From a virus: a DNA stretch of 64,000 nt. Location: positions 64,001 through 128,000 of IMG/VR virus record IMGVR_UViG_3300036715_002050; one strand, given 5' to 3'. This document shows positions 4,845 to 57,100 of the stretch, one piece after another; within the stretch, counting starts at the first letter, position 1; each line of letters begins with the position of its first letter. A program made the position numbers and the translations under genes. The notes under the pieces are model-generated. The model was not told where the DNA came from and searched no databases. It saw only the letters and a program-made list of their open reading frames with translations.

Positions 4845-4966
4845 TTGACACGCTGAACCGGATGTGCGATGATGCTTTCACGGTCGCAACGCGGACCGCC
4901 GAACAAAAAGAAAACGACGGGACGCGGTTGAAAGCAGTTGACACGGCAACCGAAACGAAGTAAGAT
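4845..4966 (+). promoter_or_regulatory. Two tandem sigma70-type promoters upstream of the tRNA operon
   Basis: TTGACA-N17-GATGAT (4845-4873) and TTGACA-N17-TAAGAT (4938-4966). Confidence 0.65.
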
Positions 4967-5398: not shown

Positions 5399-5484
5399 GG
5401 TTAAGTACCAGTTTAGAAGCTTTTAAAATAATTGTTGTCGTTTTCAACGATTTTTGTTCACGTTTTCTAAACCGGTACTTAACC
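5399..5484. repeat. Long imperfect inverted repeat (hairpin)
   Basis: GGTTAAGTACC/GGTACTTAACC plus GTTTAGAA/TTCTAAAC. Confidence 0.7.
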
Positions 5485-5541
5485 TTCTGTGGTATGATTC
5501 TGTAGTCTTCATTACGTGATGCGGCTTCAGTGCACACGTTT

Positions 5542-5615
5542 GCCCAGGTAGCGCAACGGTAGGAGGCAGCGGACTCAAAATCCGTACAGTGTGGGTTCGA
5601 TTCCCACCCTGGGCA
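5542..5615 (+). tRNA. tRNA-Leu(CAA), short variable loop
   Basis: Cloverleaf; anticodon arm GCGGA-CTCAAAA-TCCGT; T-loop TTCGATT. Confidence 0.85.
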
Positions 5616-5678
5616 TTGCCGTAACGTTCTTTCGTAGTACGGAGAATAGAATAGTTGTATGTAGTAGAAGTATTTGTT

Positions 5679-5749
5679 GGACCTAACTGGCTGGAGCCAG
5701 CTTGAAGCTGTTAACTTCAAAGTGGTGTGTTCGATTCACACTAGGTTCG
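5679..5749 (+). tRNA. tRNA-Asn(GTT), atypical compact D-arm
   Basis: GGACCTA/TAGGTTC acceptor; TTGAAG-CTGTTAA-CTTCAA; canonical T-arm. Confidence 0.75.
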
Positions 5750-5752
5750 TTT

Positions 5753-5823
5753 CTAGGGTTAGTGTAGCGGTAACACAATAGTTTTGGGAACTATTATCGT
5801 CGGTTCGATCCCGACACCTTAGA
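5753..5823 (+). tRNA. tRNA-Pro(TGG)
   Basis: ATAGT-TTTGGGA-ACTAT; cloverleaf. Confidence 0.88.
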
Positions 5824-5833
5824 CTTATAGTAT

Positions 5834-5904
5834 GCGGGCATAGTGTAGCGGTAACACGACATTCTGCCAAGTTGTAGTCACAGGTTCGTTCCCTGTTGCC
5901 CGCG
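5834..5904 (+). tRNA. tRNA-Gly(GCC)
   Basis: GCGGGCA/TGCCCGC; loop CTGCCAA. Confidence 0.82.
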
Positions 5905-5914
5905 TGTTGTGTAT

Positions 5915-5987
5915 GCCCGTGTGATGGAACGGTAGACATGTTGGTCTTAGAAACCAAATCTTGGGGGTTCGATTCCCTCCATGGGCA
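5915..5987 (+). tRNA. tRNA-Leu(TAG), short variable loop
   Basis: TTGGT-CTTAGAA-ACCAA; cloverleaf. Confidence 0.85.
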
Positions 5988-5992
5988 CTTAT

Positions 5993-6064
5993 GGTCCTGT
6001 AGCTTATATGGTAGAGCACTGGCTTGAAACCCCAGACAATCAGATTCGAGTTCTGACGGGACCA
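5993..6064 (+). tRNA. tRNA-Phe(GAA)
   Basis: GGTCCTG/CGGGACC; loop TTGAAAC. Confidence 0.8.
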
Positions 6065-6077
6065 TTGTTGTAGTTGT

Positions 6078-6148
6078 GCGGTCGTGGTGTAGTGGTAACA
6101 CTAATGGCTTCCACCCATTCATCGTCGGTTCGAACCCGACCGACCGCG
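6078..6148 (+). tRNA. tRNA-Gly(TCC)
   Basis: AATGG-CTTCCAC-CCATT. Confidence 0.88.
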
Positions 6149-6149
6149 T

Positions 6150-6220
6150 AGCGGAGTAGCCCAACCAGAGGCACCGGGATATAAACCGGCACAGTGTGGG
6201 TTCGACTCCCACCGTGCGAT
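6150..6220 (+). pseudogene. Degenerate tRNA (Leu-like body, 8-nt anticodon loop)
   Basis: D- and T-arms resemble the 5542 tRNA-Leu; acceptor stem poorly paired; CCGG-GATATAAA-CCGG. Confidence 0.5.
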
Positions 6221-6232
6221 GCAACAATGTTT

Positions 6233-6304
6233 GGGACATAAGGCAAGTGGTCAGCCGGTTGGTTTACACCCAATTCCTAGAAGGTTCGATTCCTTCATGT
6301 CCCA
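6233..6304 (+). tRNA. tRNA-Val(TAC)
   Basis: GTTGG-TTTACAC-CCAAT. Confidence 0.85.
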
Positions 6305-6328
6305 TGTACGTAACACGTAGTAAATAGC

Positions 6329-6402
6329 GCGCTTGTCGTATAACGGCTTATTATATCTGACTCTTACTCAGACTGATGGGGGTTCAAATCCCTCCAAGCA
6401 CA
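6329..6402 (+). tRNA. tRNA-Lys(CTT)
   Basis: TCTGA-CTCTTAC-TCAGA. Confidence 0.8.
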
Positions 6403-6405
6403 TAC

Positions 6406-6478
6406 GGGTCTTTAGTATAATGGTTATTACATCTGACTTTTAATCAGACCGATGTGGGTTCGAATCCCACAGGACCCA
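6406..6478 (+). tRNA. tRNA-Lys(TTT)
   Basis: TCTGA-CTTTTAA-TCAGA. Confidence 0.9.
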
Positions 6479-6485
6479 TTGTTGT

Positions 6486-6557
6486 GCCCCATTAGCTCAA
6501 CGGCAGAGCGACCGGCTTTTTCCCGGTAAGATCCATGTTCGATTCATGGGTGGGGCG
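6486..6557 (+). tRNA. tRNA-Lys(TTT), variant loop
   Basis: ACCGG-CTTTTTC-CCGGT (pyrimidine at position 37). Confidence 0.75.
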
Positions 6558-6564
6558 ATGTTTT

Positions 6565-6637
6565 GGACGTGACGCCTAATGGTTTGGGCACGCAGCCGAT
6601 TACTGCGCACTAGGGAGTTCAATTCTCTCCACGTCTA
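6565..6637 (+). tRNA. tRNA-Ile(GAT), variant loop
   Basis: CGCAG-CCGATTA-CTGCG. Confidence 0.78.
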
Positions 6638-6708
6638 CTTATCCGGTGCTAGGAACGCGTCCTAGGTAAAGCGCAACGGTCGGAGCAGCACGCCGGGCAT
6701 TGTTGTAC

Positions 6709-6791
6709 GGACGTCTCCGTCAATGGCAGACAAGCATCTTCGAACGGTGCTGGCGCGGTAACACGCGATGGTTCGATTCCATAGGCGTCCT
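6709..6791 (+). tRNA. tRNA-Ser(CGA)
   Basis: GCATC-TTCGAAC-GGTGC, long variable arm. Confidence 0.8.
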
Positions 6792-6802
6792 TAGTTGTAT
6801 GC

Positions 6803-6891
6803 GGAATTGTGGGGGAGCGGTTTAACCCATTGTCTTGGAACGGCAAAGGCGGTCGCAAGACCGTCCGAGAGTTCGAATCTCTCCGATTCCT
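6803..6891 (+). tRNA. tRNA-Ser(GGA)
   Basis: TTGTC-TTGGAAC-GGCAA, long variable arm with GCAA loop. Confidence 0.88.
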
Positions 6892-6969
6892 TTGTTAAGC
6901 TTTTTGTGTCGTACCGGACCTGTCCCGATAGCGGTTTAGTAATAATCACGCTAGGAGTACGACTTTAAC

Positions 6970-7038
6970 CGTGATTTAGTGTAAAAGAGCACGTGACCAC
7001 CCTAAGGTCTTAGTCCCAGTGGAATGCTGGGAATCACA
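6970..7038 (+). tRNA. Atypical tRNA, possibly Arg(CCT)
   Basis: GTGATT/AATCAC, D-stem GTGT/GCAC, GACC-ACCCTAA-GGTC, T-arm CCCAG-TGGAATG-CTGGG lacking TTC. Confidence 0.45.
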
Positions 7039-7046
7039 CCCATTTT

Positions 7047-7118
7047 GGACCAGTAGCCTAGCGGATAGGCCGAAGCCTTCTAAACTTCTCAACGCAGGTT
7101 CGAATCCTGCCTGGTTCG
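7047..7118 (+). tRNA. tRNA-Arg(TCT)
   Basis: Loop CTTCTAA; canonical D- and T-arms. Confidence 0.85.
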
Positions 7119-7120
7119 TC

Positions 7121-8084
7121 GGCGCATTGGCGCGCAGCCACCTTACTCGGCTTACAATAGCGAGGTGCGTCTCGTTTAGCTGGATTTCCGGTGAGCTATC
7201 CTTTTGTTGTGTACACAACAAAGTCCATGAACTTTTTGTCCGACATGGTGGCACTTTTTTAGGATCACCCACCAGGGGAGGTGGGTGGGCAAGTCCGGCA
7301 CGCACTCCGAAGTCCTATTCGTTTTTGCAGATGGCTGGGAGTTCCATCAGAAGGCCCCAGCGGCGACGGCGGCTCGTTGTCGGCCAGGTAGTGACAACCA
7401 TCTGTGATTTTTAGGTTGGGGGAGTTTGGGCACCCCTGTAAAGCTGATGTCAAAATTCAGAACCTATTTCGTTTTGAGGCTACGGTGTATAAGGACACGC
7501 TGGCCTTGTCTTCGGGCAATTGGCCGTGAGTGCGGGAGACAAAAAGCCTGCGCCTCAAAGTATTATCAGGGAAGTTGCCTTAAACAAGCATCTTTTAAAG
7601 AGTGGGCAATAGTTTGCGACATATACCGGGGCACCGTACTAAAGTCGCAAGGCTTATCATGCAAAGGTAGAGAACGACAGGCACATCGATTAACCCTGCA
7701 AAACTGTTCCGCAGTCTACCGACCCTTTGGCTTAAACAGCACACCTTTTGATACTAACTTTTATGGCGAGGCGCTTCCTAACGGGAGAGGACAGGCACAT
7801 ATCCTGTTCGTGTGTTAAAACCACAGCCGAGCACATTTTGCTTCATCCCGGTATGAACGGGGACTAGTCAGGAGGCTGAATAGCTAGTCGTTGGTGCGTC
7901 GGATATGCGTTCAGCGGCTAACCGATTGCGTCCTTTGAGGACGTGCCGACAACAAGGTGCTACGGTTTCGAACCCGCCAATCCTTGGAGCAATGTTTTCG
8001 AGCCACCTTTCGGCCATTGCGGCTAAAAAGGGATAAAGGATAAGACCTGAGACTTGATCACCTCGGGATAACACCATCTGCTCG
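7121..8084 (+). ncRNA. Array of unassigned structured small RNAs inside the tRNA operon
   Basis: No credible ORF; successive units each closed by a 6-8 bp terminal stem and separated by T-rich linkers. Confidence 0.6.
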
Positions 8085-8091
8085 ATATTTT

Positions 8092-8160
8092 AGCGGGGAG
8101 GCAAGGCGCCGCACCAGTCTCATAAGCTGGTTTTTGTTGGTTCGATTCCAACCCCCGCGA
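8092..8160 (+). tRNA. tRNA-Met(CAT), compact, initiator-like (1:72 mismatch)
   Basis: CCAGT-CTCATAA-GCTGG; tiny D-arm. Confidence 0.72.
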
Positions 8161-8178
8161 CTCGTTGTACGCAATAGT

Positions 8179-8251
8179 GGTCCTATGGTGAAACTGGAAA
8201 TCACCCTCGTCTACGAAATGAGCATTGTAGGTTCGAATCCTACTAGGATCG
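8179..8251 (+). tRNA. tRNA-Arg(ACG)
   Basis: CTCGT-CTACGAA-ATGAG. Confidence 0.88.
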
Positions 8252-8254
8252 TTT

Positions 8255-8327
8255 GTCCCCGTCGTCTATCGGGTTAGGACTCCAAACTCTCAATTTGGGG
8301 AAGCGAGTTCGAGCCTCGCCGGGGACG
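8255..8327 (+). tRNA. tRNA-Glu(CTC)
   Basis: CCAAA-CTCTCAA-TTTGG. Confidence 0.88.
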
Positions 8328-8337
8328 TGTTGTGCAA

Positions 8338-8409
8338 GGCCCTGTCGGATATTGGTTAATCCCCTAGTCCTTCAAATTAGAGAAGAGAGTTCAATTCTCT
8401 CCAGGGTCG
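8338..8409 (+). tRNA. tRNA-Glu(TTC), C33 variant
   Basis: CTAGT-CCTTCAA-ATTAG. Confidence 0.8.
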
Positions 8410-8427
8410 TTTGTTGTACCGCTTTTT

Positions 8428-8513
8428 GGAGCTTGGCCAGTGTGGCAATTGGAACGGTTTGCTAAACCGTCGTGGACTATGTCCATGGAAGTGTTCGACT
8501 CACTTAGGCTCCG
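8428..8513 (+). tRNA. tRNA-Ser(GCT)
   Basis: ACGGT-TTGCTAA-ACCGT, long variable arm. Confidence 0.85.
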
Positions 8514-8556
8514 TGGCAGAATGCAACAGTTGACACCGTAACCGGTTTCGGGTACG

Positions 8557-16410: not shown

Positions 16411-16942
16411 ATGGCTTTGACTAACACAATATCTTTCCGTAAAGTAAGGGAACCGTATGGGTGGATGTCTAACATGTCTCCGCACCCGGTCATGGTGGGT
16501 AACGAAATTTGGCGCACAACCGAACACTTGTTCCAAGCTGCGCGCTTTTTCCCGCACACCCAAAAAGAGATTCGGGACGCCATCCGTGAGTGCAAGTCGC
16601 CTATGGGTGCCAAGATGATAGCGAAGTCGCACGCGTCGAAAATGTGTGTGGTGCCTCGAAGCGATAACGACGTGCGTCAAATGTCTTGGATTCTTTCCAT
16701 CAAACTGGAACAGCACCCTACTTTGTTGACTGAACTAATTGGCACTGGGGACGCGATGTTGATTGAAGACGTAACGGCTCGTCCAAGTGAATCCGGATTG
16801 TTCTGGGGCTCGGGACCCGGCTTGCGTTTCGCCCGAAAACCCGCTAGGATGGTCTGGTTCGAACGTCTTGGGAAACACATGGATGGGGTGGAGAGAAATT
16901 TACCGAGCCCGTCTAGGAATTAGCTGGACACCAAATGATTAA
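16411..16942 (+). CDS. NADAR family protein, apparent frameshift near 16807
   Basis: PYGWMSNMS...TTEHLFQAARF...FWG; conserved W.G.N.LG..WM..R continues in the +1 frame to TAA at 16942. Confidence 0.8.
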
Positions 16943-51371: not shown

Positions 51372-51435
51372 GCGTGTAAGTTGTTTGTGTGTCAAAAGCA
51401 GTCAAAAGCAGTCAACCCTAACCCAAGGAAGTGCT

Positions 51436-53637
51436 ATGCGTAAGAATGATTTGTCGATGCCGGAAGCCGTTACTATCCCAGACCTGAACTTTTCGTTCAC
51501 CGAAGGTGGTTCGGTGACTTATAGTGGCATCGTGGCGTTGATGGCTCAAAATGCTTTTCGTGACGGTGAAGTCTTGTATGGCTATGCGTCACCCACCGAA
51601 GACGAAAACTTTTTCATCCCTCCGGACAAGCAGCCGTTGTTCGAAGAGATTGTGCGTGAAATCGTGGATCGACTAAGCATGGAGCGTGTCGACGGGGACA
51701 TCGGAATCACGCCTGATGGGAAGTTTGCGCGCGAAGACGGCATGCAACGTTTGTACATGTCGGACACGTCCGTGCTGAACGTTTCGGTCTACGTCCGCGG
51801 GACATCGTTGCAGGCCCAAACGTCCTTCTATTCGACCGACCCAGATCTGGGGCACGTGTTCGAAAAGCTCGTGCAGTTTTACAAGCTAAACCAGAAGCCC
51901 ATCCCGCCGCCCGAGCCGGAGCGTGAAGGGTCGGTGTATTGCTTGGTGACGACTCGTTCGGGTATGTCGTTCAAGGACATTGGCTCGATCTACATGCCGT
52001 TTGAGCCGAAGAACTACCCGGCAGACGTGGTGGCGGACTACGAATTCGTGGTCAAGGATATCGCATCCGTCATGCCTAATGGGCGCTTAGCGTTGATGGC
52101 GTCGGAGCCGGGTTGTGGGAAGTGCTGGGGGCGTGATACGGAAATTCTGATGCACGACGGGTCCATCAAGAAAGTCCAAGACATTGTTGCGGGCGAATTC
52201 GTAATGGGCCCCGACTCTACGCCACGCCGGGTTTTACGCACCAATACTGGGACAGGTCCCTTGTTCAAGATCGTGCCCACCAAGGGGCAGCCGTGGATTT
52301 GCAACGACGTCCACGTGTTGACTTTGGTCAGCAATGACGCCAAGTCAAAAGATGGGATCATCGACATTCCGTTAAATGAATATTTGACAAAGACGGATGC
52401 TTTCAAGCATCACCACAAACTTTTCCGCGTGCCCGTAACTTTTCCTGTGCAAGAGAAGTTGCCACTAGACCCATACTTCTTAGGATTGTGGTTTGGAGAT
52501 GGTACGAAAGACCTGAAAAGTGTGGGGATCTCCAAGCCTGACCGAGAAGTGTTGGATACGTGCCGTTCAATCGCTAAACAATTTGGTCTAGTTATTTCGA
52601 CTTCTATCTCGTCTAATGGATGCCCGACCCATCGCTTGGCTCAGGAAGAGTTGACTCGTTCGACGCCAAACAAGCTTGCACAGTTACTCAAGTCTGTTGT
52701 GGGAGAAGGCATTAACGTTCCACAAAAGTATTTGACTGCCTCTACCGAAGAACGTTTGGAATTCTTGGCCGGTTGGTTGGATTCAGACGGAGCGCTGTGT
52801 GGAACAAACTGTTACGACTTCATCCAGAAGCGCAAGGATTATTCGGACGCGGTTGCTTTCTTGGCGCGCTCAGTTGGGTTGGCTGCTTACGTGACTGAAT
52901 GCGAAAAGACTTGCCAAAACGACTTTACCGGTACATACTACCGTGTATCGATTTCTGGTGACACCTCAATTATCCCCATGAGAATTCCGCGCAAGATGGC
53001 TGCAATGCGTCAACAGATCAAAAGCGCGCTGCGCACGGGATTCGAAGTAGAGTCTATCGGTGACGGCGAATACTTTGGGTTCACGTTGGAAGGAGATGGG
53101 CGTTTGGTCATGGGTGACTTCACCGTGGGTCACAACACCAAGATGATTGAGTCCATCATCTACAACGCGCGTAACGACGCGGTGATCCCGATCTTTGTTC
53201 CTGCGCACGAAGTAGAGCACGTTGGGTCGCCGGACTTCTTGCGTGCGTTGATGGAGTTGAATGGCTCACGTAAGCTGATCGTGCTGGAGGACGCGGACTT
53301 GGCCTTGACCAAGCGCAAGAAGGGCACGCCCGGTGCGGACTTGAAGTCCATCGCCGCTCTGTTGAACTTGACGGACGGTATCTTGGGTAACACGTTAGAC
53401 TTGTACTTCTTGGTAACGACCAACGCGGAATTGCCCGAGCTAGATCCGGCCATTACCCGCCCGGGGCGTCTGTCCAAGTTGATTGCACCCAAGAAGCTGA
53501 CGGCTGTGGAAGCCGAAGAGTGCTTCTTGCACCACACCGAAACCCACCGCACTTTTAGCGAGCCGATGACGCTGGCGGCGGTGTACGAACAAATCCGTGC
53601 TCATCGCGCCAAGCAGTTGGTGTTGCCCGTAGAATAA
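51436..53637 (+). CDS. AAA+ ATPase interrupted by an intein
   Basis: Walker A EPGCGK|T, Walker B IVLEDAD, LLNLTDG, TTN, DPAITRPGR. Confidence 0.88.
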   Translation: MRKNDLSMPEAVTIPDLNFSFTEGGSVTYSGIVALMAQNAFRDGEVLYGYASPTEDENFFIPPDKQPLFEEIVREIVDRLSMERVDGDIGITPDGKFAREDGMQRLYMSDTSVLNVSVYVRGTSLQAQTSFYSTDPDLGHVFEKLVQFYKLNQKPIPPPEPEREGSVYCLVTTRSGMSFKDIGSIYMPFEPKNYPADVVADYEFVVKDIASVMPNGRLALMASEPGCGKCWGRDTEILMHDGSIKKVQDIVAGEFVMGPDSTPRRVLRTNTGTGPLFKIVPTKGQPWICNDVHVLTLVSNDAKSKDGIIDIPLNEYLTKTDAFKHHHKLFRVPVTFPVQEKLPLDPYFLGLWFGDGTKDLKSVGISKPDREVLDTCRSIAKQFGLVISTSISSNGCPTHRLAQEELTRSTPNKLAQLLKSVVGEGINVPQKYLTASTEERLEFLAGWLDSDGALCGTNCYDFIQKRKDYSDAVAFLARSVGLAAYVTECEKTCQNDFTGTYYRVSISGDTSIIPMRIPRKMAAMRQQIKSALRTGFEVESIGDGEYFGFTLEGDGRLVMGDFTVGHNTKMIESIIYNARNDAVIPIFVPAHEVEHVGSPDFLRALMELNGSRKLIVLEDADLALTKRKKGTPGADLKSIAALLNLTDGILGNTLDLYFLVTTNAELPELDPAITRPGRLSKLIAPKKLTAVEAEECFLHHTETHRTFSEPMTLAAVYEQIRAHRAKQLVLPVE
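52123..53136 (+). mobile_element. Intein with LAGLIDADG homing endonuclease (338 aa)
   Basis: Starts CWGRDT, ends VGHN before Thr; LGLWFGDG and LAGWLDSDG. Confidence 0.92.
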
Positions 53638-54862
53638 GTTGGCGTCCAAGGAGGGTCGATGACGATTGAGTATTCTAAGACATGGTCTGGACAAGACAAT
53701 TCGTCACCTTTGTGGGATGATGGGCATTGGGGGTGGATAGTCGACGATGATGCTGGACAAGTTCCATGGGAAGGAAACATGCGCCCTGCCGGTGACAAGC
53801 GATTCGACTTGAACCGTGCGATGAATTGCGTGGACGCGTATGGTGAAGTGTGTCTGTCCGATACCTCTTTTGTAAAGGTGACCGATGAGTAATCCCAAAG
53901 CCGCGTGGCCGCCCGCATCGGCGCCGCCCAAAGAACAACAGGAGCGGTCAGTTCGTGTAGATCGTGCCAACCAATATTGGTTGATAAGCCGCCGCGGCGC
54001 GCCACATGTGGGTCACCAAACCAAGACAGAACAACTCATGGGCTCGTGGTGGGTGAAGTTTCACGGTGGCGCGCCGGAACGTATCGATTGGTACGACCGG
54101 CAAGAGCGGTCGACGGTTGACACAATGGATTTGGTGCTCGATGAATGACCTAGATGAGTTCTACGGTGCGCTCGGCAAGCAATACGTTCCGTCACCCAAA
54201 GAGTTAGACGATGATGGGCCGGACTGTTGGTGGTCAGAAGACGGGAACGACCCCACGTCCTACAAGTACGATGGGACAGATTGGAAAGCGCTGGACGACG
54301 GTGGAGCAGACGATGGTCCCGGGCGCTGTTGGTGTGAAGAAGACGAATCGGAACGTATGGCAACGCGGGCAGCCCGAAAGTTTTTGCGGACTTATTCGAT
54401 GGGAGATCCCGATGTCCTATGACTGGAACGTCCGCAAAGAGATCAAGCGCCGGGAGCATCCGTGGAATCCGACCCGGTTTTACTTGTATGATTCGGGGCC
54501 GCACCAGCCCGTGCTAGAAGCACGCGCAAGACAAACACAAAAGAATCCGGAACGAGAGGGTTGGCAATTCGGGAACACCTGGCCCTATGCGTATCACCGC
54601 ACGTGGTCCGCGCCACTACAAACACAGTACCTTGACATGGACCCGGAAGCCGACTAGGATGGTGGTCATGGGTTACACGGGATGGACCGATGAAGACCCG
54701 GAAGAAGACCGCGACCGGGGGTACAACGCTCGTCAATCCGGGAGCCAACCGGTAGAATACCAAGCGCATTTTGTGTATGATGCAACAAAATTCGGGATAG
54801 AAAATCTTAGGTCTTATTTTGGAAAATGGCAGCGCGAACACGTAGGACACGAGGAAACACAA

Positions 54863-57100
54863 ATGACTGACGCAAACAACAAGCCCGCCCCCGCCAAGAA
54901 GCTTGGGTACAACATTTCGCAAGACTCGACCTTGAACGGTCAAGTGGTTGCGTACCAGCACTTCTTGGAAAACGGGTTGGTAATCCACAAAAAGAACAAG
55001 GGCATCCACGTCCCCTACAGCCGCTTGAAGGAGTTCAATACGCAGCTAGCTAAACAACTGCAAGGCTTTGAATTGCGCATCCAAAACGGCACGTCGTCTA
55101 TGTACCAGCGCGTGGTGGAAGGTGTGCCCGGCAACGACTTTGTGTTCACGTATCGTTCCAAGGCGGAAAAGCACGTGGAAATCAATGTGACGTGCATGTC
55201 TGACCGCCCGGACTTTTCGCTGGGATTCTTGCGCCAACTGGTCAAGTTCAGGCGAGTCATCAAAGGCGACAAGTTTATTTCGCTGTTGACGATTGTCAAC
55301 GGCCAAGTGTCGTTGTCCCGTCAAAAGGTGGACGTGAAGACGTTCTCGGAGCGCCACTACAATGACACGATGATCCCGATTTACCACAAGATGATGAAAA
55401 AGGTGAACACGGGTGACGGGGTAGGGAAGATCGCGCTGTTGACGGGGTTGCCCGGAACCGCCAAGTGTCTCGGCTTGGGTACCAAGGTGATTAAGTTTGA
55501 CGGCTCTATCGTCAACGTGGAAGACGTTGTGGTTGGTGATGTGCTTATGGGTCCTGACTCTAAGCCTCGTATCGTCCAGTCCGTAAGCCGTGGCGAGTCT
55601 CCGTTGTATAAGATCGTTCCTACCAAGGGCGAATCTTGGGTGTGCAACGATGTTCACGTGCTAACTCTAGTCCATTCTACTAAAAATGAAGTGGTAGATA
55701 TTGCTCTGCCTGATTATATGTCTAGCAATAAATCGTTCAAGGAAAAGGCAAAGCTATTTCAGCCTGAAAACGGCGTGGAGTTTCAAACGTCGCAAGATAA
55801 ACTACCAATCGACCCGTACTTTGTCGGCGTGTGGCTGGGTGATGGGACTAAGCAGTTCGATGTTTCTGGGGTTAACCCGTCACGACTAAATGGCGTTCAC
55901 ATCAGTAAGCCCGACCAGGAGATCCGGGATATGTGCGCAAATGAAGCCGCAAAGTGGGGGCTTGCTCTCAACACTACTTATGGCGGTAATACTAATTCAT
56001 GCCCGACCTATCGTTTGTCAGCAGGACGTGGTCTGGGTGAACCAAAAGAAAATCGCAATCCTCTTTTGACCGAAATGCAGAAGCTATTCCCCAATCGCGT
56101 TATCCACATTCCTGCAATTTACCTACGCGCCTCTCGTGCAGAACGTCTGGAACTGTTGGCTGGGATCTTGGATACCGACGGATATTTGGGCGATAATTGT
56201 TATGAGATTTCTCAAAAGTCCGTGACGCTAGCAAATGACATTGCATTCTTGGCACGCTCCGTCGGGCTCAAGGTTACGCAGACTGTGACGACCGTAAATA
56301 AAGGACATTATACCAAAGCCCAAATCTCTGGGCATGTGGACATGATTCCTTGCCGAATCGCACGTAAGCAAGCTCAGCCGCGCAAGCAAGTCAAGAATGC
56401 CCTGCGTACCGGTTTTAAAGTGGAGTCAATTGGTGTAGGTCCTTACGCGGGGTTCACCCTGGATGGCGATGGTCGTTTCTTGCTAGGCGATTTTACGGTT
56501 ACTCACAACACTACGTTGTTGCAGGCAATTGCGCATGACTTGGACGAGGACAAGGCTATCGCGGCCTTCGTCAATCCTTGGGACTTTTCCCAAAAGTTCG
56601 ATGACAACTTTGTTATTCAGCTAGCTGACCAGTGCCGAGGCAAGAGACTGGTGCTGTTCATCGAAGACTCGGAAGCCATCATCGGGCCCCGCAATGACGG
56701 CAACTCCGGCCACGTGTCGCGTCTGCTGAACTTGACGGACGGGATTTTGGGCAAGATTTTGGACATCTTCGTGGTGTGCACAGCCAACCAGCGCCAAGTG
56801 GATATCGACTCGGCTTTGACGCGCGCTGGGCGCTGCTTGGTTAACGTGGAAGTGCTGCCACTGGAGCGTGAAAAGGCCAATGGGCTGTACTGGTTTGAGC
56901 GCGACCAACTGTGCAAGAAGCATGGTTTGGAGTGCGTGACCCCCACGGACGAGAAAGCTTTCAACGCGGTTTTTAAGGACGAGGCCACCGTAGCCGAAGT
57001 GTACCAGCGCTTCTATGATGACACCGCCCGCACCGTCGAAGACTCGCTGGGGCAAACCGTCACCACCAAGAAGAAGGGCAAGATGGGGTTTGGGTCGTGA
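54863..57100 (+). CDS. AAA+ ATPase paralogue interrupted by an intein
   Basis: GLPGTAK|T, LFIEDSE, LLNLTDG, TAN, DSALTRAGR, C-terminal MGF; GAGG RBS at 54863. Confidence 0.88.
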   Translation: MTDANNKPAPAKKLGYNISQDSTLNGQVVAYQHFLENGLVIHKKNKGIHVPYSRLKEFNTQLAKQLQGFELRIQNGTSSMYQRVVEGVPGNDFVFTYRSKAEKHVEINVTCMSDRPDFSLGFLRQLVKFRRVIKGDKFISLLTIVNGQVSLSRQKVDVKTFSERHYNDTMIPIYHKMMKKVNTGDGVGKIALLTGLPGTAKCLGLGTKVIKFDGSIVNVEDVVVGDVLMGPDSKPRIVQSVSRGESPLYKIVPTKGESWVCNDVHVLTLVHSTKNEVVDIALPDYMSSNKSFKEKAKLFQPENGVEFQTSQDKLPIDPYFVGVWLGDGTKQFDVSGVNPSRLNGVHISKPDQEIRDMCANEAAKWGLALNTTYGGNTNSCPTYRLSAGRGLGEPKENRNPLLTEMQKLFPNRVIHIPAIYLRASRAERLELLAGILDTDGYLGDNCYEISQKSVTLANDIAFLARSVGLKVTQTVTTVNKGHYTKAQISGHVDMIPCRIARKQAQPRKQVKNALRTGFKVESIGVGPYAGFTLDGDGRFLLGDFTVTHNTTLLQAIAHDLDEDKAIAAFVNPWDFSQKFDDNFVIQLADQCRGKRLVLFIEDSEAIIGPRNDGNSGHVSRLLNLTDGILGKILDIFVVCTANQRQVDIDSALTRAGRCLVNVEVLPLEREKANGLYWFERDQLCKKHGLECVTPTDEKAFNAVFKDEATVAEVYQRFYDDTARTVEDSLGQTVTTKKKGKMGFGS
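55466..56509 (+). mobile_element. Intein with LAGLIDADG homing endonuclease (348 aa)
   Basis: Starts CLGLGT, ends VTHN before Thr; VGVWLGDG and LAGILDTDG. Confidence 0.92.

What the first reader, a model, noticed from the sequence alone, without database searches (positions are those of the whole stretch)
6643..8084. String of non-tRNA small RNAs, each closed by an acceptor-sized stem, within the tRNA operon
Seen: units at 6643-6696, 6908-6963 (GTCGTAC/GTACGAC), 7121-7171, 7260-7317 (TAGGA/TCCTA), 7327-7405 (GCAGATGG/CCATCTGT), 7412-7466 (TAGGTT/AACCTA), 7473-7559 (TTTGAGGC/GCCTCAAA, cloverleaf-like with a long TTCG-capped arm), 7564-7753 and a larger unit ending near 8084. They are separated by the same T-rich linkers as the tRNAs. 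Inference: a co-processed cassette of about nine unrelated small RNAs, possibly decoys, Y-RNA-like RNAs or sponges for host defence proteins.
Basis: partly seen in the sequence, partly recalled or inferred. Interest (0 to 1): 0.72.

Follow-up and report, generated by a model that had tools for sequence, protein, structure and literature searches.

The report
Small folded RNAs between phage tRNAs
An uncultured 137-kb phage has about 1 kb of non-coding, non-tRNA sequence inside its tRNA operon, and at least two short pieces of it are real, selected RNA folds of unknown function, much like the unexplained small RNAs in phage T4's tRNA cluster.

Summary
The 7121-8091 gap has no tRNA, tmRNA, Rfam family or credible ORF. 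Taken alone, "each unit is closed by an acceptor-sized stem" is not above chance. Shuffles give as many closed units, and folding energies are unremarkable, though they are unremarkable for the true tRNAs too.

The real support is comparative and covers two units. A diverged relative in three metagenome runs keeps 7321-7500 between other tRNAs. In unit 7412-7466, all 7 listed substitutions fit the fold, including two double compensatory pairs (chance about 3e-4). Unit 7327-7405 keeps 42 identical letters, and its closing G-U becomes G-C.

I read the region as a set of portable structured RNA modules, co-transcribed with the tRNAs and probably cut out by tRNA-processing RNases. It works like T4 RNAC/RNAD but is not related to them. 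The other seven or so units, the processing and any decoy role are unproven. No other relatives were found.

This scan has reported similar arrays in other phages. It is a new variant of a known kind, of moderate interest.

The parts
6643..6696 (+). Candidate unit 1 (54 nt), between tRNA-Ile(GAU) 6565-6637 and tRNA-Ser(CGA) 6709-6791
   Evidence: It has complementary ends. It is a separate MFE domain at both span limits. Closing-stem probability in context is 0.50 and z is -0.38. No comparative data.
6908..6963 (+). Candidate unit 2 (56 nt), GTCGTAC/GTACGAC
   Evidence: The stem is present and z is -1.30. Closing-stem probability in context is 0.01 and it is not an MFE domain. Weak.
6964..7045 (+). 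Aberrant cloverleaf-like RNA (stem 6971-6977/7031-7037) followed by an encoded CCA at 7040-7042.
   Evidence: The MFE is a three-arm cloverleaf with z -2.09. It is an MFE domain at span 120. ARAGORN does not call it and Rfam tRNA does not match it at E<=10. The strain variants at 6978, 7023 and 7039 are not informative for pairing.
7121..7171 (+). Candidate unit 3 (51 nt), directly behind tRNA-Arg(TCT)
   Evidence: GGCGCA/TGCGTC ends. z is -1.27. It is an MFE domain at span 120. Probability in context is 0.03.
7172..7259 (+). Unassigned spacer with an 18-nt perfect palindrome at 7204-7221
   Evidence: 20-nt self-match on the opposite strand; z -0.30.
7260..7317 (+). Candidate unit 4 (58 nt), with an 8-bp G+C-rich hairpin inside
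   Evidence: 6-bp closing stem including one G-U. z is -1.03. Probability in context is 0.00. It is not part of the block shared with the relative, whose homology starts at 7321.
7327..7405 (+). Unit 5 (79 nt). It has a 7-8 bp closing stem, a conserved first hairpin with a 13-15 nt loop, a hypervariable second hairpin (7362-7392) and a single-stranded 3' segment.
   Evidence: The closing stem is 8 bp. Between the flanking T-runs, shuffles match this in 4 of 2000. Probability in context is 0.73. In the relative, 7321-7362 shows no listed difference and 7405 T>C turns the closing G-U into G-C. The second hairpin is replaced there (10 substitutions and 13 inserted letters).
7412..7466 (+). Unit 6 (55 nt). 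A Y-shaped fold with a 6-bp closing stem and two hairpins.
   Evidence: All 7 listed substitutions in the relative fit the fold: 2 in loops, 1 G-C to G-U, and two double compensatory pairs (7445/7459 and 7446/7458). They are the same in runs X2, X3 and X4. Random substitution gives this in about 3e-4 of trials. Probability in context is 0.42.
7473..7559 (+). Candidate unit 7 (87 nt). A cloverleaf-like four-way junction with a UUCG-capped long arm and no anticodon loop.
   Evidence: 8-bp closing stem. The cloverleaf-like fold scores -31.5 against an MFE of -32.4 kcal/mol. z is -1.91. Probability in context is 0.00. In the relative only 7473-7500 aligns.
7564..7753 (+). Candidate unit 8 (190 nt)
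   Evidence: 5 Watson-Crick closing pairs. Probability in context is 0.62. z is +0.17. No comparative data.
7838..7992 (+). Candidate unit 9a (155 nt), closed by 8 bp.
   Evidence: Between T-runs, shuffles match the closing stem in 5 of 2000. Probability in context is 0.30. The stem is part of the MFE of 7754-8091.
7998..8085 (+). Candidate unit 9b (88 nt), TCGAGC/GCTCGA, directly before tRNA-Met 8092-8161
   Evidence: Shuffles match the closing stem in 63 of 2000. It is an MFE domain at span 120. Probability in context is 0.46.
7318..7326 (+). T-rich linker. Linkers of the same kind lie at 7406-7411 and 7467-7472.
   Evidence: The homology with the relative begins inside this linker at 7321, where the relative joins it to the 3' end of a tRNA-Gly(GCC)-like gene.

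Best explanation
The tRNA-free stretches of this phage tRNA operon (7121-8091, plus the short inserts at 6643-6696 and 6908-7045) are non-coding RNA transcribed together with the tRNAs on the + strand. They consist of independently folding modules set between T-rich linkers.

At least two modules, 7327-7405 and 7412-7466, are genuine RNA elements. Selection keeps their base pairing, and they travel as a block between different tRNA genes in a related phage.

Inferred, not shown: the same host enzymes that cut the tRNA precursor (RNase E in the U-rich linkers, RNase P and 3' trimming at the closed ends) release them as small stable RNAs. The closing stems would protect their ends. This is how RNAC and RNAD arise from the T4 tRNA cluster.

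Their function once released is unknown. The conserved 13-15 nt loop of 7327-7405 is the best candidate for a contact surface. The remaining candidate units may be further modules, but each is unproven.
For: Non-coding and of no known family.
- No tRNA or tmRNA.
- No Rfam family at E<=10 apart from one noise hit.
- The only long + strand ORFs overlap tRNA-Arg or are not kept in the relative. Pfam finds nothing significant.

Same transcription unit (inferred).
- All neighbouring tRNAs are on the + strand.
- None of the 18 promoter-like sites lies in 7121-8091.
- The only strong terminator is at 12353-12381.

Comparative evidence.
- Runs X2, X3 and X4 (three studies) each hold a contig that matches 7321-7500 with 21 other letters and 15 gap letters.
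- In X2 that contig is joined upstream to the end of a tRNA-Gly(GCC)-like gene (5905) and downstream to a tRNA-Pro-like gene (5750).
- In 7412-7466, all 7 listed substitutions fit the isolated-unit fold, with two double compensatory pairs. The competing MFE of the wider context is broken by 4 of them.
- Random substitution gives 'no pair broken and at least 2 compensated pairs' in 0.0003 of 400,000 trials.
- 7434 C>T (G-C to G-U) and 7405 T>C (G-U to G-C) make sense only on the + strand.
- 7321-7362 has no listed difference, while the neighbouring hairpin is replaced.

Linkers. T-rich 5' flanks are shared with the tRNAs. A chain of 5 units joined by T-rich linkers is reached by 0 of 400 shuffles.

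Precedent. T4 rnaD and rnaC lie 1 and 6 nt behind tRNA-Arg and each other, on the tRNA strand. Their roles are still unknown (PMC3014915 and PMC9697503, passages).
Against: - No expression or end-mapping data. No RNA run holds the stretch, so release as discrete RNAs is pure inference.
- Closing stems of this size and spacing are as frequent in shuffled sequence.
- Unit and whole-gap folding energies are not exceptional.
- 5 of 11 candidate closing stems have probability 0.04 or less in context. MFE domain borders change with the span limit.
- Comparative support rests on one diverged lineage and covers only 180 of about 1,000 bases. One of its 21 substitutions (four in X4) is not listed, so its place is unknown.
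- The two compensatory pairs are adjacent and may be two events rather than four.
- The relative's homology stops at 7500, inside unit 7, so not every breakpoint lies at a unit border.
- The units lack the canonical T-arm that makes T4 rnaC an obvious RNase P substrate.
Confidence: 0.5

Rival explanations
1. Cis-acting spacer structure. The hairpins are not products. They are parts of the precursor that space the tRNAs, guide or slow RNase E and RNase P cleavage, or shield neighbouring tRNAs from exonucleases. They are degraded after processing.
For: The modules sit in U-rich linkers like those around the tRNAs. Structure is conserved in 7412-7466, which a cis role would also explain. There is no sign of a trans target and no paralogues elsewhere in the genome.
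Against: One kilobase is far more than the 2-25 nt spacers that suffice between the other tRNAs of the same operon. The 7321-7362 block, loop included, is conserved letter for letter, which suggests sequence-specific recognition rather than mere bulk structure. The block keeps its identity next to different tRNAs in the relative.
Confidence: 0.2
2. Debris. The gap is made of decayed tRNA genes and recombination scars in a fast-shuffling tRNA array. Most of the 'units' are chance stems with no function.
For: Stem counts and folding energies equal those of shuffles. The array does hold degenerate tRNA-like pieces. 6168-6216 is 80% identical to the 3' half of tRNA-Leu(CAA) but has no acceptor stem, and 6964-7045 is an aberrant cloverleaf. 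The gene order differs between the relatives.
Against: Double compensatory changes, and zero pair-breaking changes among 7 listed substitutions in 7412-7466. 7321-7362 has no listed difference beside a hairpin that was replaced. No part of 7121-8091 scores as tRNA even at E<=10. This rival could still hold for the units that have no comparative data.
Confidence: 0.15
3. One large RNA. The 3' half (about 7564-8085), or the whole 7327-8083 span, is a single large structured RNA of the kind found beside phage tRNA islands (ROOL- or GOLLD-like in role), not a string of small ones.
For: CCATCTGC at 8076-8083 is a perfect complement of GCAGATGG at 7327-7334, and the unrestricted MFE uses this long-range pairing. 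ROOL and GOLLD are 'often near tRNA islands' in phages, and GOLLD was first seen downstream of a tRNA-Met (PMC12286853, passages). There is no internal promoter or terminator.
Against: No ROOL, GOLLD or other large-RNA match at E<=10. In the relative, 7327-7466 stands between two tRNAs, and what follows 7500 no longer matches the window's 7501-8083. So at least these two units close locally. In the relative, 7405 T>C strengthens the local closing stem. z of 7754-8091 is -1.11 and of 7564-7753 is +0.17.
Confidence: 0.1
4. Small protein genes lie hidden in the gap.
For: There are + strand ORFs of 131 aa (7019-7414) and 130 aa (7426-7818).
Against: The first overlaps tRNA-Arg 7046-7120. The second starts at TTG, has no Pfam match above cut-off (best E 0.079), and crosses a +1/-1 indel pair. 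The relative's homology ends at 7500, inside it. Reading TAG through gives nothing longer in the gap proper.
Confidence: 0.02

Closest known systems
Phage T4 RNAC and RNAD (species 1 and 2 stable RNAs of the tRNA cluster)
   Same: Both are non-tRNA RNAs encoded on the tRNA strand, abutting tRNAs and each other with linkers of a few bases (T4: 1 and 6 nt). Both have unknown function (PMC3014915 and PMC9697503, passages).
   Different: No sequence similarity. blastn against the phage collection matched only the tRNA-Arg part of the query. T4 rnaC carries a canonical GGTTCGAATCC T-arm with terminal pairing and folds far better than shuffles (z -4.57). The units here have no such T-arm (none of the 15 copies of the T-arm repeat lies in 7121-8091) and no energy signal. 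T4 has two such RNAs. This operon has up to about eleven candidates spread over 1.4 kb.
ROOL and GOLLD large ornate RNAs of phages and prophages
   Same: Non-coding RNA of unknown function placed next to or among phage tRNA genes. GOLLD can hold tRNAs in its linker (PMC12286853, passages).
   Different: No match to either covariance model at E<=10. The two supported modules here are 55 and 79 nt and close locally.
tRNA and tRNA-like structures (Rfam RF00005)
   Same: Terminal stems of 6-8 bp and the same T-rich flanks. 7473-7559 can form a four-way junction within 0.9 kcal/mol of its MFE. 6964-7045 is a cloverleaf followed by CCA.
   Different: None scores as tRNA. There is no anticodon loop or T-loop consensus. 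The units of 51-58 nt have only two arms.
Spacer-derived RNAs of bacterial tRNA operons (for example the 3' external transcribed spacer of an E. coli tRNA operon acting as a sponge for small RNAs). Recalled, not checked in any call.
   Same: An RNA released as a by-product of tRNA precursor processing that acts in trans.
   Different: No target or pairing partner was identified here. Those spacers are short and single, not a kilobase of modules.

Membership tests
tRNA (RF00005) | Cloverleaf scoring at or above the gathering score of 29 bits, or an ARAGORN call | tested here: not met
   No match inside 7121-8091 even at E<=10. ARAGORN finds none there. The same searches find the flanking tRNAs.
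tmRNA, RNase P RNA, 6S RNA, Y RNA / YrlA | Match to the family covariance model | tested here: not met
   ARAGORN finds no tmRNA. Rfam finds none of these at E<=10.
GOLLD / ROOL | Match to the Rfam covariance model | tested here: not met
   No match at E<=10 on 6540-8200 or on 7115-8095.
Self-cleaving ribozymes (hammerhead, twister, pistol, hatchet, HDV-like) | Match to the family model with an intact catalytic core | tested here: not met
   None in the gap. The one Twister-P5 row (14.8 bits against a cut-off of 37.6, E 5.3) lies inside tRNA-Ser 6803-6891. The CTGATG in 7444-7449 is changed in the relative, so it is not a hammerhead core.
T4 RNAC/RNAD-type stable RNAs of a phage tRNA cluster | Encoded on the tRNA strand, between or directly behind tRNAs, without its own promoter or terminator | tested here: met
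   for this window. for T4.
T4 RNAC/RNAD-type stable RNAs of a phage tRNA cluster | Sequence relationship to T4 rnaC or rnaD | tested here: not met
   blastn (distant mode) of 6560-8170 against 50,697 phage records found 12 records, all matching only query bases 494-551, which is tRNA-Arg.
T4 RNAC/RNAD-type stable RNAs of a phage tRNA cluster | tRNA-like 3' module (canonical T-arm plus terminal pairing), as in rnaC | tested here: not met
   rnaC has CCGGGTTCGAATCCCGG and paired ends. No T-arm repeat copy lies in 7121-8091. The terminal stems are present.
T4 RNAC/RNAD-type stable RNAs of a phage tRNA cluster | Accumulates as a discrete stable RNA during infection | not testable with these tools
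   No RNA run holds the stretch. The host is unknown.

The most novel reading that the evidence does not exclude
The modules are a toolkit of portable, trans-acting RNAs that ride the tRNA operon and its processing machinery. Each presents a conserved loop, such as 7340-7355, that binds or titrates a host factor, for example a tRNA-targeting defence nuclease or an RNA-binding sensor. Phages exchange them among tRNA arrays as accessory counter-defence cargo.
Probability: 0.12. Interest if true: 0.8.

Novelty: new variant of a known kind. Interest (0 to 1): 0.42.

Why it matters
Non-tRNA RNAs in phage tRNA clusters have been known since T4's RNAC and RNAD and are still unexplained. Large phage RNAs beside tRNA islands (ROOL, GOLLD) are also without a function.

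Here two such modules are only 55 and 79 nt long. They have base-pair-level evidence of selection and evidence that they move as a block between tRNA genes. That makes them small, defined objects for experiments: synthesis, pull-downs, or expression next to a tRNA in a model host.

If many phage tRNA arrays carry such cargo, as other windows of this scan suggest, then 'tRNA islands' are general small-RNA expression platforms. Part of their assumed role in codon supply or tRNA replacement would need rethinking.

Tried and rejected
Searches for relatives, which is why covariation could be tested on only 180 bases.
- blastn of 6560-8170 against the phage collection matched only tRNA-Arg.
- tblastn of the 798-aa neighbour found nothing.
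- The search for related loci in IMG/VR with the deformylase, the 119-aa protein and the EF-Ts-like protein found no relative.
- The DNA polymerase gave 16 loci at only 23-27% identity, too distant to use.
- The search for homologous proteins with the 798-aa protein found only itself.
- With the 89-aa EF-Ts-like protein it found itself and one 53-aa recombinant form, P0002, on a 3,490-bp contig.
- Exact 22-mers from 7406-7427 and 7337-7358 gave 0 hits in viral contigs, metagenome contigs and genome contigs (second 22-mer only).
- The scan's own index has no look-alike outside this genome.
- There are no paralogues of the gap elsewhere in the 137-kb record.

Expression. No RNA holder was listed for the stretch. 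All four runs laid were DNA contigs.

Parts without cover or without a diverged contig (7501-8091 and 6560-7320) gave no information.

Thermodynamic tests could not tell real tRNAs from coding DNA here. I do not count them for or against.

Ideas dropped.
- A hammerhead core in 7444-7450. It is changed in the relative and has no Rfam match.
- A reverse-strand tRNA remnant at 7947-7975. It is 76% complementary to the 3' end of tRNA-Trp (I1), but there is no acceptor partner and no ARAGORN or Rfam call.
- Pairing of the 7341-7349 loop with the D-loop of tRNA-Leu(TAG) (I23). A 9-mer match of this kind is expected several times in 137 kb.
- Readthrough ORFs with TAG recoded.

Papers.
- PMC12286853, PMC3014915 and PMC9697503 were read as passages only.
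- The Northern blot of RNAC in PMC9697503 is in a supplementary figure that I could not see.
- Searches for print on non-tRNA RNAs in phage tRNA arrays gave no paper describing a cassette like this one. Subscription journals are not covered.
- The 1970s-80s T4 literature on species 1 and 2 RNA processing is recalled, not read.
Full report
Where it lies. The window is bases 64,001-128,000 of a 137,415-bp IMG/VR virus record, estimated 85% complete. The genome has a portal, a large terminase, a DNA polymerase and helicases. Near the finding it has a peptide deformylase, an RNA ligase and two intein-bearing ATPases. ARAGORN finds 36 tRNAs in the window, 29 of them on the + strand between 5541 and 12088. 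Rfam adds tRNA-Ile(GAU) at 6565-6637 and one at 11733-11804. The finding covers the tRNA-free parts of this array: short inserts at 6643-6696 and 6908-7045, and a 971-base gap at 7121-8091 between tRNA-Arg(TCT) and tRNA-Met.

Checking the observation. Unit 7473-7559 can indeed form a four-way junction with a C(UUCG)G-capped arm, at -31.5 kcal/mol against an MFE of -32.4. The linkers are T-rich like those before the tRNAs. The six bases upstream of 30 tRNA 5' ends hold 2.77 T on average, against 1.60 for the array as a whole. Six of 11 candidate unit starts have four or more T, which only 6.8% of gap positions reach. There is no tmRNA, and no RNase P RNA, GOLLD, ROOL, ribozyme, Y RNA or other Rfam family at E<=10. 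The only row in the gap is a 10.6-bit snoRNA hit against a cut-off of 38. Coding is unlikely. The two long + strand frames either overlap tRNA-Arg or start at TTG with no family match, and recoding TAG adds nothing.

Is it more than chance? For the stems alone, no. Dinucleotide shuffles of the gap hold as many stem-closed units as the real sequence: 146 against 143.6 for units of 40-200 nt, 41 against 40.0 for units of 45-100 nt, and 8 against 8.55 for stems of 8 bp or more. A chain of nine loosely defined adjoining units is reached by 216 of 300 shuffles. A chain of five stricter units is reached by 72 of 400. Only when the linkers must also be at least half T does the real sequence stand out (5 against a mean of 1.94; 0 of 400 shuffles), and I chose that criterion after seeing the pattern. 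I also cut the gap at its T-runs alone. Three of the 11 segments are then closed by stems that shuffles rarely match: 7327-7405 (4 of 2000), 7838-7992 (5 of 2000) and 7998-8085 (63 of 2000).

Folding energies say nothing either way. Unit z-scores run from +0.17 to -2.09 and the whole gap gives -0.44. But 90-nt windows over the tRNA-dense stretch average -0.41, over the gap -0.31, and over two coding stretches -0.28 and +0.21. In a partition function over 5500-8550, six of 11 candidate closing stems have probabilities of 0.30-0.73 and five have 0.04 or less. True acceptor stems score above 0.5 in 13 of 20 tRNAs and below 0.1 in five. The MFE domain borders move with the span limit.

The evidence that counts. 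Four metagenome runs hold the stretch. X1 carries a near-identical strain, with 5 differences in 6893-8410, none informative for pairing. X2, X3 and X4, from three studies, each also carry a contig of a diverged relative that aligns to 7321-7500 with 21 other letters and 15 gap letters. In X2 it is joined upstream to 5905, the end of a tRNA-Gly(GCC)-like gene, and downstream to 5750, the start of a tRNA-Pro-like gene. So in that phage the block holding units 7327-7405 and 7412-7466 sits between other tRNAs, and the upstream breakpoint falls in the T-rich linker six bases before the first closing stem.

Within 7412-7466 the seven listed substitutions are the same in all three runs, and all fit the fold of the isolated unit. 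Two are in loops. One turns G-C into G-U. Four form two double compensatory pairs (7445/7459 T-A to C-G, and 7446/7458 G-C to C-G). The alternative MFE of the wider context is broken by four of them. Random substitution leaves no pair broken and gives two or more compensated pairs in 0.0003 of 400,000 trials. The two pairs are adjacent, so they may represent two events, which weakens this figure somewhat.

In 7327-7405 the first 42 aligned bases (7321-7362: linker, 5' closing strand, first hairpin and its loop) show no listed difference. The closing G-U becomes G-C (7405). The second hairpin (7362-7392) is replaced by 10 substitutions and 13 inserted letters and cannot be aligned pair by pair. 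The G-U changes fit the + strand only. One of the 21 substitutions in X2/X3, and four in X4, is not in the printed table, so its place is unknown.

What this rules in and out. The two units are real, locally closed, selected RNA structures. That also argues against one large RNA spanning 7327-8083, which the perfect complement CCATCTGC at 8076-8083 and the unrestricted MFE had suggested. In the relative, what follows 7500 no longer matches the window's 7501-8083, so that distal partner is not seen there. The relative's homology ends at 7500, inside unit 7473-7559, so that unit is not shown to be conserved. For the other candidates there is no comparative information at all. The array also holds pieces that look like decaying tRNAs. 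6168-6216 is 80% identical to the 3' half of tRNA-Leu(CAA) but lacks an acceptor stem. 6964-7045 is an aberrant cloverleaf followed by CCA. Some 'units' may therefore be debris.

Mechanism. Shown: non-coding, on the tRNA strand, no internal promoter-like or convincing terminator-like site, promoter-like sites at 4845 and 4938, and a strong terminator at 12353-12381. Inferred: co-transcription with the tRNAs, endonucleolytic cuts in the U-rich linkers, trimming to the closed ends, and stems that protect the released RNAs. Unknown: what the released RNAs do. I put 0.5 on 'portable structured RNA modules released from the tRNA precursor'. I put 0.2 on a purely cis role in precursor processing, 0.15 on mostly functionless debris around two conserved elements, 0.1 on a larger single RNA in the 3' half, and 0.02 on coding.

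Comparison with what is known. The nearest precedent is T4. rnaD (119 nt) starts one base after tRNA-Arg, and rnaC (139 nt) six bases after rnaD, on the tRNA strand. A review states that their biological roles are unknown (PMC3014915, passage), and a 2022 omics paper still calls them RNAs of unknown function (PMC9697503, passage). The present units share the placement but not the sequence. They also lack rnaC's canonical T-arm and its strong folding signal (z -4.57). So this works like T4 RNAC/RNAD but is not a member of their family. ROOL and GOLLD are also found near phage tRNA islands (PMC12286853, passages), but their models do not match. Earlier follow-ups in this scan reported arrays of non-tRNA small RNAs in the tRNA operons of other phages. 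I did not test those claims. They share no sequence with this stretch.

Limits. The phage lineage is isolated. Neighbour proteins have no relatives in IMG/VR. The polymerase reaches only 23-27% identity. The 798-aa neighbour has no homologue among the candidates scored. Exact 22-mers of the two supported units occur nowhere else in the three collections. No RNA data exist for the stretch.

Verdict. This is a new variant of a known kind. Interest is moderate: solid base-pair evidence for two small modules and their mobility, in a setting with a 50-year-old unsolved precedent, but with no function, no expression data and no support yet for the other units.

Noticed in passing
window 6964-7045: An aberrant cloverleaf-like RNA not called by ARAGORN or Rfam. 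It has a 6-7 bp acceptor-like stem, an anticodon-like loop ACCCTAA, a T-loop TGGAATG, and an encoded CCA at 7040-7042. The strain in X1/X2 differs at 6978, 7023 and 7039.
   Followed up: partly
window 6150-6231: A tRNA-like remnant. 6168-6216 is 80% identical to the anticodon and T-arm part of tRNA-Leu(CAA) 5563-5611 and has an 8-nt loop holding TAT. I found no acceptor stem, and ARAGORN and Rfam make no call.
   Followed up: partly
window 6565-6637: tRNA-Ile(GAU) missed by ARAGORN but found by Rfam when 6540-8200 was searched alone (38 bits).
   Followed up: yes
window 8989-9258 and about 9349-9510: Two small proteins with a weak EF-Ts N-terminal-domain match (E 0.0039, below the Pfam cut-off) flank tRNA-Gln(CTG) and share a near-identical block. 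A 53-aa form that joins the head of the first to the tail of the second exists on another contig (P0002). Runs X1/X2 show a matching patch of changes at 9082-9097, which suggests gene conversion between the paralogues.
   Followed up: partly
window 5400-5483: A 19-nt inverted repeat (95% complementary, 46 nt apart) between the 119-aa ORF and the first tRNA. A TGgTATGAT extended -10-like motif lies near 5500-5508, just before the array.
   Followed up: no
window 8076-8083 and 7327-7334: CCATCTGC near the end of the gap is a perfect complement of the 5' closing strand of unit 7327-7405, and it resembles that unit's own 3' strand plus the following T-rich linker. It could be an alternative long-range pairing or a trace of duplication.
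   Followed up: partly
window 51385-53637 and 54587-57100: Two AAA-ATPase genes each interrupted by an intein (Hint plus homing-endonuclease domains).
   Followed up: no
window 10826-10896: A tRNA with anticodon CTA (amber suppressor type) inside the array. ARAGORN labels it Pyl.
   Followed up: no
window 9978-10051 and 11560-12352: Further aberrant tRNA-like sequences in the same operon, some followed by CCA. They were seen only by eye in the sequence.
   Followed up: no
window 16411-16923: A NADAR-domain protein (E 2.3e-13) a few kb downstream of the array.
   Followed up: no
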